Source of the DNA: a virus
Taxonomy: Duplodnaviria > Heunggongvirae > Uroviricota > Caudoviricetes
Reading direction: 5' to 3' (one strand)
Length of the DNA stretch: 15,832 nt
Virus record (IMG/VR): IMGVR_UViG_2675903609_000009
Shown here piece by piece: positions 2,258 through 2,539 of the stretch. The stretch's first letter is position 1; each line of letters starts with the position of its first letter. A program made the translations under genes and the position numbers. A model generated the notes under the pieces. The model was not told the DNA's origin. It saw nothing but the letters and a program-made list of their open reading frames with translations, and did not search any database.

Positions 2258-2539
2258 TTACCGCCGTAACCGCTCCGGCTTCTTCCAGTGGTACGTGATT
2301 TTCTCCTTCTCCCGATACAGTTCAACGCGGCGATTGTAGGCCAGCATTTCCAGAACGCGGATCCGTATGTCGCGCATATCCGCATCATTAAGCTGGATAC
2401 CATCACGGCGCATCACCTCAGCAACAACACGCGCATAATTTTCGGCTGTCACGCTGTCCGGCTGCGTGGTCTGTTCGTCAGCCTGCTGGCTGATTCCAGA
2501 GACGCGGCGGATTAATCGCAGTATTTCGGCTTCTGTCAT
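2258..2539 (-). CDS. Hypothetical protein (93 aa), last gene of the packaging operon, immediately downstream of large terminase
   Basis: ORF with GAGG Shine-Dalgarno about 10 nt upstream of ATG at 2539; 13-nt gap after terL stop; no family recognised by eye. Confidence 0.5.
   Translation of the reverse strand: MTEAEILRLIRRVSGISQQADEQTTQPDSVTAENYARVVAEVMRRDGIQLNDADMRDIRIRVLEMLAYNRRVELYREKEKITYHWKKPERLRR

What the first reader, a model, noticed from the sequence alone, without database searches (positions are those of the whole stretch)
2258..2539. Unassigned 93-aa gene at the distal end of the packaging operon
The ORF has a good ribosome-binding site and follows terL by 13 nt, but matches none of the expected head or packaging functions. 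The terminal position next to the attachment site is where satellites and prophages often carry accessory cargo (helper interference, anti-phage or host-modifying functions).
Basis: inference. Interest (0 to 1): 0.4.

Follow-up and report, generated by a model that had tools for sequence, protein, structure and literature searches.

The report
Conserved orphan gene of phage satellites
The 93-codon gene after the large terminase is real, but it is not variable cargo: it is a conserved small protein of unknown function found near the far end of many E. coli phage satellites (PICIs), and published work on a 91%-identical copy suggests it is not needed for satellite transfer.

Summary
The ORF (2258-2539, minus strand, 93 aa) exists as described: ATG start, GAGG 8 nt upstream, 13 nt after the terL stop. 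The window is E. coli/Shigella phoQ followed by a capsid-forming PICI (EcCIEDL933 type) inserted between phoQ and roxA.

The protein has no Pfam, NCBIfam, PADLOC or PDB match and no informative fold match. It matches PHROG 1561 (unknown function) over its full length. It is absent from 50,697 phage records but present in 1,567 of 5,426 complete E. coli genomes. In every island examined it is the last or nearly last gene, whatever the packaging module and attachment site. dN/dS of 0.13-0.40 shows a selected protein.

It is 91% identical to EcCICFT073 c1505. Per PMC6739421, only c1503 among the cloned genes blocked lambda. An island with c1504-07 replaced by cat appears to be the transferable "EcCICFT073 cat" of that paper. 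So it is neither a head or packaging part, nor an excisionase, nor a lambda blocker. It is backbone, not variable cargo.

The mechanism remains inferred: a small basic three-helix protein with an invariant C-terminal Y-x-W-K-K-P-E-R-L-R-R tail, probably binding nucleic acid or a host or phage partner. It lies about 790 nt from att. That interval holds units combining an IHF-consensus motif and a hairpin.

The parts
2258..2539 (-). 93-aa ORF (stop included). Member of the c1505 / phrog_1561 family. Predicted three helices (3-14, 28-45, 52-82), a disordered linker (15-27) and an invariant basic C-terminal tail.
2540..2552 (-). 13-nt terL-ORF spacer holding the Shine-Dalgarno-like GAGG (2551-2548), 8 nt before the ATG. 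No terminator lies between terL and the ORF, so co-transcription with the late operon is expected (inferred).
2553..4214 (-). Large terminase (terL), the upstream neighbour.
2223..2260 (-). Repeat unit 1. It starts at the ORF stop codon (TAACtcacTGAGATT, a degenerate IHF-like box) and is followed by the hairpin AGCGCA-aaat-TGCGCT (2238-2223). Between-island DNA homology that starts at the ATG usually ends just after this unit.
2086..2123 (-). Repeat unit 2: TAACccgctcTGATATT followed by the hairpin CCTCA-att-TGAGG.
2038..2073 (-). Repeat unit 3: a perfect IHF consensus TAACTGTTTGATA (2073-2061) followed by the hairpin GCGCA-aaaa-TGCGC (2051-2038).
1896..1922 (-). Terminator-like hairpin on the sense strand of the operon (ATGACGT-ggcca-ACGTCAT followed by TTTTTT). 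It is the likely end of the late transcript. It was read from the sequence and appears in the RNA fold; the simple scan did not list it.
1460..1469 (.). att core AAATATGTCC, the left boundary of the island. It overlaps the phoQ stop codon. The same core is found at the integrase end of the near-identical island in L001, and the empty K-12 site reads AAATATGCCC.
1538..1561 (+). Tandem ATTRACTACACC repeats, also present near the integrase end of L001. They are probable arm-type integrase sites (inferred).

Best explanation
The ORF encodes a genuine, selected small protein that belongs to the backbone of enterobacterial phage-inducible chromosomal islands (PICIs). It is the counterpart of EcCICFT073 c1505 and, by gene counting, of EcCIEDL933 gene 1795. 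It is not a capsid or packaging component inherited from an HK97-like phage, and it is not variable cargo. In this capsid-forming PICI it is most likely translated as the last cistron of the AlpA-dependent late operon. In lambda-cos PICIs it sits just past a second, inverted cosN-cosQ site. Shown here: its identity, distribution, fixed position and purifying selection. Drawn from a published strain list and text: apparent dispensability for transfer and no block of lambda. Inferred mechanism: a soluble three-helix protein. Its conserved surface is made of arginines on helix 3 (R59, R61, R70) and the invariant C-terminal tail Y-x-W-K-K-P-E-R-L-R-R. This surface would bind a negatively charged partner. 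The most likely partner is nucleic acid at the satellite's 3' end, where the gene overlaps the first unit of an array combining an IHF-consensus motif and a hairpin. There it would tune or insulate transcription near att. A conserved host or phage protein is the alternative partner. I put about 0.9 on identity and classification and only about 0.25 on the nucleic-acid-binding regulatory mechanism.
For: Identity and reality:
- Full-length phrog_1561 match at 1.5e-55.
- 965-1,068 protein clusters, all named hypothetical or prophage protein.
- dN/dS of 0.13-0.40 in 36 pairs.
- The leucine codon in the invariant tail varies synonymously (TTA/CTG/TTG) while the residue is kept.

Satellite-specific and taxonomically narrow:
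- No tblastn hit in 50,697 phage records.
- Only 37 representatives among 1.84 billion proteins clustered at 50% identity.
- Found in Escherichia, Shigella, Citrobacter and Salmonella.

Backbone position:
- Last or nearly last gene in PICIs with five different packaging modules, at five attachment sites.
- 1,567 of 5,426 genomes carry it, with up to 6 copies.
- 492 genomes have terL and the ORF adjacent, against at most 36 with this terL end and no ORF.
- Between-island DNA homology begins exactly at the ATG.

Genetics from the literature:
- The primers of pJP2220 ('pBAD18 c1505') bracket the CFT073 homolog exactly.
- PMC6739421 states that only c1503 among the cloned genes reduced lambda plaques.
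- The c1504-07::cat arms map so that about 900 bp including this gene are replaced. c1504-07::cat islands are the cat-marked EcCICFT073 strains that turned up in a term search of that paper's supplementary files (I did not read the full strain table), and its text tests mobilisation of the 'EcCICFT073 cat' island by lambda and 80.

Structure and surface:
- The AF2 model has mean pLDDT 72, and 83-89 over residues 30-70, with three helices.
- Invariant columns are E3, Y35, G47, N51, D54, I58, R59, R61, L66, Y83, W85, K86, P88, R90, L91 and R92.

Link to the repeats:
- A perfect IHF consensus overlaps the stop codon in 7 of the 13 fetched copies, and in 7 of the 12 intact ones (the window's own copy is degenerate).
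- 21 of 29 units carry a perfect stem of at least 5 bp at a fixed offset, against 2.3 expected.
Against: - No DNA- or RNA-binding fold or family was detected.
- The hairpin stems differ between islands while the protein hardly changes. This argues against sequence-specific recognition of those hairpins.
- The number of repeat units varies from 1 to 7, and the units could simply be insulators or terminators unrelated to the protein.
- In lambda-cos PICIs the gene lies beyond a terminator-like hairpin (seen in L008) and an inverted cos site. That looks more like an independently expressed moron.
- No binding, expression or phenotype data exist.
- The transfer inference rests on a strain name and on prose; I could not see titres.
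- Identifying 'EcCICFT073 cat' with the c1504-07::cat strains is my inference.
Confidence: 0.5

Rival explanations
1. Moron-like accessory protein aimed at the host or at competitor phages. A small inhibitor docks through its conserved C-terminal tail onto a host factor, a defence system (anti-defence) or a protein of non-helper phages (defence). It benefits the lysogen or the satellite's establishment rather than its packaging.
For: - Apparently dispensable for transfer in K-12-derived laboratory strains (PMC6739421).
- The 3' end of PICIs is a recognised site for immune or accessory genes (PMC11364771; 10.1101/2025.02.11.637232).
- In lambda-cos PICIs it lies past a terminator-like hairpin and an inverted cos site, and is followed by hairpins, like a separate transcription unit.
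- Small, helical, orphan and taxonomically narrow, as many phage-encoded inhibitors are (general knowledge).
Against: - Far too conserved and too constant in position for typical defence cargo. It occurs once per island, with up to 6 copies per genome, so a trans-acting benefit would be redundant.
- No PADLOC match.
- Its overexpression was reported not to reduce lambda plaques (phi80 and HK97 are mentioned, but it is unclear whether this clone was tested on them).
- No sigma-70-like promoter was found upstream, either in CFT073 or inside the terL end of the window.
Confidence: 0.3
2. Packaging accessory. A small factor assists terminase or cos recognition, or head completion, and is encoded after the terminase-type gene because it works with it.
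For: - In most of the islands examined it directly follows the terminase-type gene: terL here and in L001, L011 and L012; a terS/Rpp-like gene in L006, L008, L009 and L013; DUF1441 in L010. L005 and L007 are exceptions.
- It is only 13 nt from terL, with its own ribosome-binding site.
- In lambda-cos PICIs an inverted cosN-cosQ lies about 65 nt upstream.
Against: - The same protein (77-100% DNA identity) accompanies unrelated packaging systems: HK97/HNH type, lambda Nu1/Rpp type and DUF1441 type.
- It is absent from all 50,697 phage records.
- An EcCICFT073 derivative lacking it appears to be the transferable reference island of PMC6739421.
- In L007 cargo genes separate it from the Nu1-like gene.
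- In L005 the upstream neighbour has no family match.
- The EcCIEDL933 packaging-module mutant set appears not to include it (inferred by gene counting).
Confidence: 0.07
3. Recombination directionality factor or other att-proximal recombination protein. A small basic protein encoded near attR helps the integrase excise or integrate the island.
For: Small, net basic, encoded about 790 nt from att, with IHF-consensus sites nearby.
Against: - The island derivative without it still appears to transfer and give selectable transductants, which requires excision and integration (PMC6739421).
- Nearly identical C-terminal halves occur in islands at different att sites (L010 at tRNA-Ile/mug and L011 at clpS). 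The Nissle copy at narP is 93.7% identical in DNA to the phoQ copy. The protein therefore does not track integrase specificity.
- It lacks the winged-helix/HTH_17 fold. A helix-turn-helix regulator at the alpA position next to int is annotated in the near-identical island L001; the window's own alpA region was not examined. The excision role of AlpA-type proteins is taken from the literature.
Confidence: 0.03
4. The conservation reflects a DNA element rather than a protein, for example part of the repeat array or a terminator, and the ORF is incidental.
For: The last codons (CGG CGG TAA C) are shared with the junctions between downstream repeat units. In L001 these 10-12 nt are duplicated around an extra unit.
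Against: - dN/dS is well below 1 in every pair, with dS up to 0.6-1.9.
- The frame is intact in twelve of thirteen copies examined (the L006 copy is truncated).
- There are synonymous changes inside the invariant tail.
- Homology blocks begin exactly at the start codon.
Confidence: 0.02

Closest known systems
EcCICFT073 c1505 (RefSeq WP_000133413.1), last annotated CDS of the prototype classical E. coli PICI
   Same: 85 of 93 residues identical. Same roxA-phoQ insertion site, same position as the last CDS before att, and the same downstream repeat units. Both belong to phrog_1561-type 'hypothetical proteins'.
   Different: In EcCICFT073 it follows rppA (c1503) and an inverted cos2 site rather than terL. 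That island has no portal, protease or terminase genes. Its function is unknown. Only two negative results exist: no lambda block on overexpression, and apparent dispensability for transfer (PMC6739421).
Gene after terL in EcCIEDL933-type cf-PICIs (WP_000133425.1 in O157:H7 TT12B; inferred to be EDL933 gene 1795)
   Same: Same element type, same att site, same 13-nt spacing after terL, 87 of 93 residues identical.
   Different: The window's island has a different replication gene (582-aa primase versus a DUF927 protein) and a nonsense codon in its capsid gene. The published mutant set describes 'hypothetical gene 1792'. By counting from capsid = 1786, that is the 183-nt ORF between HNH and terS, not this gene.
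Accessory or immune genes at the 3' end of PICIs and SaPIs, and morons of lambdoid phages such as bor
   Same: Location at the distal end of the element, dispensability for mobilisation, small size, and flanking hairpins.
   Different: Those genes are variable between elements and often belong to recognisable defence or virulence families. This one is nearly invariant in presence and position across PICI types and matches no defence model.
Arginine-rich-motif RNA-hairpin binders such as lambda N (a 'works like' lead only, recalled from memory)
   Same: An Arg-rich helix followed by an aromatic W-K motif (RRR..RR....Y-x-W-K-K). Short hairpins each preceded by a conserved linear box lie immediately downstream.
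   Different: The motif is C-terminal, not N-terminal. The hairpin loops are 3-4 nt and A/T-rich rather than GNRA-like pentaloops. The stems vary while the protein does not. There is no sequence homology. The conserved box fits the IHF DNA consensus better than boxA.

Membership tests
phrog_1561 / EcCICFT073 c1505 family (uncharacterised) | Full-length match to the family profile | tested here: met
   phrog_1561 E=1.5e-55, residues 1-93 on profile positions 1-93 of 93. 91% identity to the CFT073 copy.
phrog_1561 / EcCICFT073 c1505 family (uncharacterised) | Position as the last or nearly last gene of a PICI, co-oriented with the late genes | tested here: met
   Window, L001, L005-L013.
Capsid-forming PICI (the element that carries the gene) | int, primase/rep, HK97-type capsid, protease, portal, head-tail connectors, HNH, terS and terL; no tail or lysis genes; size about 15 kb | tested here: met
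   Pfam hits for terL, terS, HNH, connector, portal, protease and capsid; integrase-like and primase-like ORFs listed but not searched against any family here. Same layout, with int, an alpA-position HTH regulator and a replication gene annotated, in the near-identical L001 and in L012. Caveat: the capsid gene carries W276->stop, and the window's own alpA region was not examined.
HK97-type head-completion or packaging proteins | Homology to a head or packaging family and presence in phage genomes | tested here: not met
   No Pfam or NCBIfam hit. PHROG hits only to unknown-function families. No tblastn hit in 50,697 phage records.
Known anti-phage defence systems | Match to a PADLOC model | tested here: not met
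   0 families at E<=10 for three family members.
Helper-interference proteins of PICIs (Rpp-like) | Blocks helper plaque formation when expressed alone | not testable with these tools
   Literature only. PMC6739421 reports that only c1503 among the cloned genes reduced lambda plaques, and c1505 was among the clones. No sequence similarity to TerS or Rpp.
Excisionase / recombination directionality factors | Required for excision; winged-helix or HTH_17 fold; co-variation with the integrase | tested here: not met
   All-helical model with no HTH_17 hit. Near-identical variants occur at different att sites. A derivative lacking it appears to transfer (literature).
Hha/YmoA/Cnu H-NS modulators | Profile similarity to the Hha family | tested here: not met
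   hhalign probability 0.1%, E=0.54, 16 columns.
Lambda N-type antiterminators | N-terminal arginine-rich motif binding boxB pentaloop hairpins preceded by boxA, upstream of terminators | tested here: inconclusive
   Only a compositional resemblance. The hairpins have 3-4-nt loops and the conserved box fits the IHF consensus.

The most novel reading that the evidence does not exclude
The gene and the array of IHF-box/hairpin units that begins at its stop codon form one conserved '3'-end module' of enterobacterial PICIs. In this reading the protein's arginine-rich C-terminal helix and tail bind the hairpins, as RNA or as extruded DNA. Binding would control read-through or insulation between the late operon and attP/int in the excised circle. 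That would be a satellite-specific regulatory device with no described counterpart.
Probability: 0.08. Interest if true: 0.6.

Novelty: already known. Interest (0 to 1): 0.3.

Why it matters
This gene appears to be a widespread 'known unknown' of E. coli satellites. It is present in about 29% of complete genomes. It is carried by both the capsid-forming and the classical PICIs that are the main experimental models. It has been removed to make room for markers without ever being studied. A protein kept under purifying selection in every PICI lineage, yet apparently not needed for laboratory transfer, points to a step of satellite biology that standard assays miss. Candidates are establishment in wild hosts, competition, or regulation at the island end. 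For annotation, the practical result is that it should be labelled a conserved PICI backbone protein of unknown function, not a head or packaging protein and not cargo.

Tried and rejected
**Family and sequence searches**
- Pfam, NCBIfam and PADLOC scans of the query and of 17 family members found nothing consistent.
- A PDB sequence profile search gave a best E of 1.6, a chance match to arylamine N-acetyltransferase.
- An exhaustive phmmer search of 1.84 billion representatives found 37 hits: 35 short proteins that look like family members or fragments, plus two long proteins (1,813 and 1,298 aa) with weak partial matches.
- Two further homology searches, from the most distant member and from the profile, gave no named relative.

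**Structure comparisons**
- The AFDB library was not available.

**Specific relationships tested**
- A relation to the Hha family was suggested by eye and rejected by hhalign.

**RNA and DNA searches**
- Rfam on 1400-2700 gave no match.
- The repeat array is not found in phage records.
- The search for related loci with the single protein found only one true relative.

**Literature**
- A search for c1505 together with CFT073 found no paper.
- EcCIMP1 is a different PICI type and gave no lead.

**Searches that were confounded**
- The rppA-plus-ORF junction search was confounded by lambdoid cos matches and did not give a clean linkage fraction.

Full report
**1. What is in the window**

Bases 1-1461 (+) encode PhoQ. 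Everything from about 1470 to the right end is a mobile island on the minus strand. It carries an integrase-like ORF (14603-15832), a 582-aa primase-like ORF and an HK97-type major capsid gene. Then come a prohead protease, a portal, two head-tail connector genes, an HNH endonuclease, a P27-type small terminase and a large terminase at 2553-4214. There are no tail or lysis genes.

The nearly identical region in E. coli 2014C-3097 lies between phoQ and roxA. K-12 has only a 75-nt spacer at that site. The att core AAATATGTCC (window 1460-1469, overlapping the phoQ stop) recurs at the integrase end of that island.

This is a capsid-forming PICI (cf-PICI) of the EcCIEDL933 kind described in 10.1101/2022.09.08.507074. 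O157:H7 strain TT12B carries a 15.4-kb element with the same layout at the same site. The closest genome-collection match is a Shigella flexneri chromosome at 98-100% identity.

**2. The observation**

The ORF at 2258-2539 (-) is real as an open frame: 93 aa, ATG start, GAGG 8 nt upstream, and 13 nt after the terL stop. Several lines show that it is a gene and not a chance frame.
- It matches phrog_1561 ('unknown function') over residues 1-93 of a 93-position profile at 1.5e-55.
- RefSeq annotates it as a CDS.
- About 1,000 protein clusters match it.
- Nine copies taken from different islands give dN/dS between 0.13 and 0.40 in all 36 pairs, with dS up to 1.9.
- Inside the invariant C-terminal tail the leucine codon varies synonymously (TTA, CTG, TTG). 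The constraint is therefore on the protein.

**3. What it is not**

It has no match in Pfam, NCBIfam, PADLOC or among PDB sequences, either as a single protein or as 17 family members scanned individually. tblastn finds nothing in 50,697 phage records, so it is not part of the HK97-like packaging set that cf-PICIs share with phages.

**4. Distribution and context**

The family is narrow. An exhaustive search of 1.84 billion representatives gave 37 hits at E<=0.001, 35 of them short proteins that look like family members or fragments. The named members come from Escherichia, Shigella, Citrobacter and Salmonella.

Within E. coli it is common: 1,567 of 5,426 complete genomes, up to six copies per genome, always labelled 'hypothetical protein'.

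I looked at thirteen copies in their islands. The gene is always at the distal end and co-oriented with the late genes. The rest of the island varies.

| Island type | Loci | Attachment site |
|---|---|---|
| cf-PICI, gene after terL | window, L001, L012; L011 | phoQ; clpS |
| Lambda-cos PICI with gpE-like capsid, decoration protein and a TerS/Rpp-like gene | L008, L013; L009; L006 | phoQ; narP; mug/rpoD |
| Protease-capsid fusion plus DUF1441 | L010 | tRNA-Ile/mug |
| Nu1-like gene, with a PAAR/pyocin/CdiI cassette inserted before the ORF | L007 | clpS |
| Citrobacter island, upstream neighbour without family match | L005 | mug/rpoD |

Between islands, DNA homology starts exactly at the ATG and ends just after the first downstream hairpin.

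A junction query shows 492 genomes with this terL end and the ORF adjacent. At most 36 genomes have the terL end without the ORF. That is roughly 93% linkage. The figure is approximate, because a genome with a terL-only island and a copy of the ORF elsewhere would be hidden.

Variants do not follow the attachment site. The narP copy is 93.7% identical in DNA to the phoQ copy. The tRNA-Ile/mug and clpS copies share their C-terminal halves.

The gene therefore behaves as backbone, not as variable cargo. Where real cargo occurs, it is inserted next to this gene.

**5. What published experiments already say**

EcCICFT073, the prototype classical PICI, sits at the same roxA-phoQ site. Its last CDS is an 85/93-identical copy of this gene.

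I mapped the primers in the supplementary tables of PMC6739421 onto CFT073. Plasmid pJP2220 ('pBAD18 c1505') spans 28317-28690, which brackets this gene at 28374-28655. The paper states that, of the genes cloned from the region after ori, only c1503 (rppA) reduced lambda plaque formation.

The same tables list 'EcCICFT073 c1504-07::cat'. Its homology arms map to about 28044-28091 and to 29002-29061. The cat cassette therefore replaces cos2, c1505 and most of the downstream repeats. c1504-07::cat islands are the cat-marked EcCICFT073 strains that a term search of the supplementary files turned up. The paper's text tests mobilisation of the 'EcCICFT073 cat' island by lambda and phi80. The gene thus appears dispensable for induction, excision, replication, packaging, transfer and integration in that system. 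I could not see the titres, and equating the strains with the island named in the text is my inference.

For the cf-PICI prototype, the 2022 preprint mutated 'each gene of the packaging module'. It mentions one hypothetical gene, 1792. The capsid gene is 1786 (10.1101/2025.02.11.637232). With the gene order seen in TT12B, 1792 is the 183-nt ORF between HNH and terS, and the present gene would be 1795. It apparently was not tested. That numbering is my inference.

**6. Surroundings that may bear on function**

The gene is not next to att. About 790 nt intervene. Starting at the stop codon there are repeat units of the form TAAC-n4-TGATATT, then 5-8 nt, then a short perfect hairpin.

The box fits the IHF consensus (YAANNNNTTGATW, the reverse of WATCAANNNNTTR). 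A perfect match overlaps the stop codon in 7 of the 13 fetched copies, and in 7 of the 12 intact ones. Up to four perfect matches follow within about 400 nt. About 0.6 matches are expected by chance in a whole 15.8-kb window. In the window itself, unit 1 is degenerate and unit 3 is perfect.

Across 11 islands, 21 of 29 motif matches are followed at a fixed offset by a perfect stem of at least 5 bp. Shuffled tails give 2.3 on average and 7 at most. The stems differ between units (AGCGCA, CCTCA, TTCGCC, TTCCACA, GGCTCA and others) while pairing is kept.

The 396-nt 3' region folds with a z-score of -4.95. No Rfam family matches it, and the array is absent from phage records.

Further towards att lie four GTGAC repeats spaced 10 bp apart (1975-2010), a sense-strand terminator-like hairpin (1896-1922) and arm-type repeats (1538-1561).

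In lambda-cos PICIs an inverted cosN-cosQ ('cos2') lies about 65 nt upstream of the ATG. In many genomes cos2 and the ORF form one conserved block.

**7. How it most likely works**

Shown here: it is a selected, satellite-specific, backbone-positioned protein. Drawn from the literature: it does not block lambda and appears unnecessary for mobilisation.

Inferred: the invariant residues fall into two groups.
- A hydrophobic core and helix cap: Y35, V38, V39, M43, N51, D54, I58, L66.
- A basic surface: R59, R61 and R70 on helix 3, plus the tail Y83-x-W85-K-K-P-E-R-L-R92.

Such a surface suits a negatively charged ligand. Because the gene physically overlaps the first IHF-box/hairpin unit, my leading guess is a nucleic-acid-binding modulator acting at the island's 3' end. 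It might insulate the late operon from attP and int in the excised circle, or from transcription entering from phoQ. I give this specific mechanism only about 0.25.

The main rival, at about 0.3, is a moron-like inhibitor that docks on a host, defence or competitor-phage protein. That would equally explain dispensability in K-12 laboratory strains. It fits less well with one copy per island and near-universal presence.

Packaging accessory (0.07), recombination directionality factor (0.03) and 'DNA element, not a protein' (0.02) are largely excluded by the evidence above.

**8. Verdict**

It is wrong in calling the gene terminal cargo.

The gene is already catalogued (PHROG 1561, RefSeq WP_000133415-like, CFT073 c1505) and has been cloned and deleted in published work. 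Its function is unknown. Interest is moderate-low for this instance. The open question of why PICI lineages as different as these keep it is real and testable with simple genetics.

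Noticed in passing
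window 2038-2260; also L012 16280-16700, L013 28652-28850, L009 7280-7500, L001 14700-14914: An array of 1-7 units of roughly 40-50 nt lies downstream of the ORF. Each unit has an IHF-consensus box (TAAC-n4-TGATATT) followed at a fixed 5-8 nt by a perfect hairpin. The stem sequence differs between units while pairing is kept. The first unit overlaps the ORF stop codon. In L001 the last 10-12 nt of the ORF are duplicated around an extra unit. There is no Rfam match and the array is not found in phage records. Function unknown; insulator or terminator roles are guesses.
   Followed up: partly
window 8085-8087 (minus strand), within the capsid gene 7755-8912: The major capsid gene carries an in-frame stop where the intact homolog in L001 has Trp276 (...KNAV*VVNS against ...KNAVWVVNS). 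This copy of the cf-PICI probably cannot make capsids. The 93-aa ORF is nevertheless intact.
   Followed up: yes
L008 6925-6936, L009 about 6923-6934, L013 28298-28309: In lambda-cos PICIs a second, inverted lambda-type cosN (AGGTCGCCGCCC) with a cosQ-like GGGTCCT lies about 65 nt upstream of the homolog's ATG. This is the 'cos2' of Fillol-Salom et al. In many genomes cos2 and the ORF form one conserved block while the rpp gene differs.
   Followed up: partly
window 1969-2010: Four GTCAC/GTGAC direct repeats with 10-bp spacing (tttttGTCACggtgtGTCACtggttGTCACtctccGTCACg). They are conserved in L001 and in the clpS-site island L011 but absent from several other islands. This looks like a phased protein-binding site of unknown partner.
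   Followed up: no
window 1747-1898, both strands: Short hydrophobic ORFs lie on both strands. On the minus strand, 1863->1747 reads MTTQTIEATIAIIVTVGAFPPLVEKVHIWIIITVIKGM. On the plus strand, 1761-1898 reads MMIQMCTFSTNGGKAPTVTMIAMVASMVCVVIMTVQPVTLIRIFR. A promoter-like site sits at 1738-1765 (+) and is conserved in CFT073. The peptide sequences are not conserved in L012 or L013, and RefSeq annotates nothing here. The region corresponds to c1506/c1507 of the original CFT073 annotation. A toxin-like small gene is possible but unsupported.
   Followed up: partly
window 1460-1469, 1484-1496 and 1538-1561; L001 29475-29640: The att core AAATATGTCC overlaps the phoQ stop codon. A perfect IHF consensus lies 15 nt inside the island. 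Tandem ATTRACTACACC arm-type repeats are present at both island ends.
   Followed up: partly
window about 4540-4680, 5640-5710 and 9330-9470: Runs of N (masked sequence) interrupt terS and its upstream region, the head-closure gene and a region near 9.4 kb. Some ORF calls there (for example the 281-aa '4198..5043' frame) are artefacts of masking.
   Followed up: no
window about 4700-4880 (minus strand), between HNH (4805-5245) and terS: This is the position of the 183-nt 'hypothetical' gene (phrog_3173, residues 78-124 of the merged frame). By gene counting it is the 'gene 1792' whose mutation severely reduced EcCIEDL933 transfer. The cos site of HNH-type packaging systems would be expected in this interval (general knowledge).
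   Followed up: no
plasmid record NZ_CP148328.1 (10,790 bp), match at 9972-10250: A 10.8-kb 'non-mobilizable plasmid' record carries a 73%-identical copy of the gene at its end. It may be an excised, circular PICI assembled as a plasmid.
   Followed up: no
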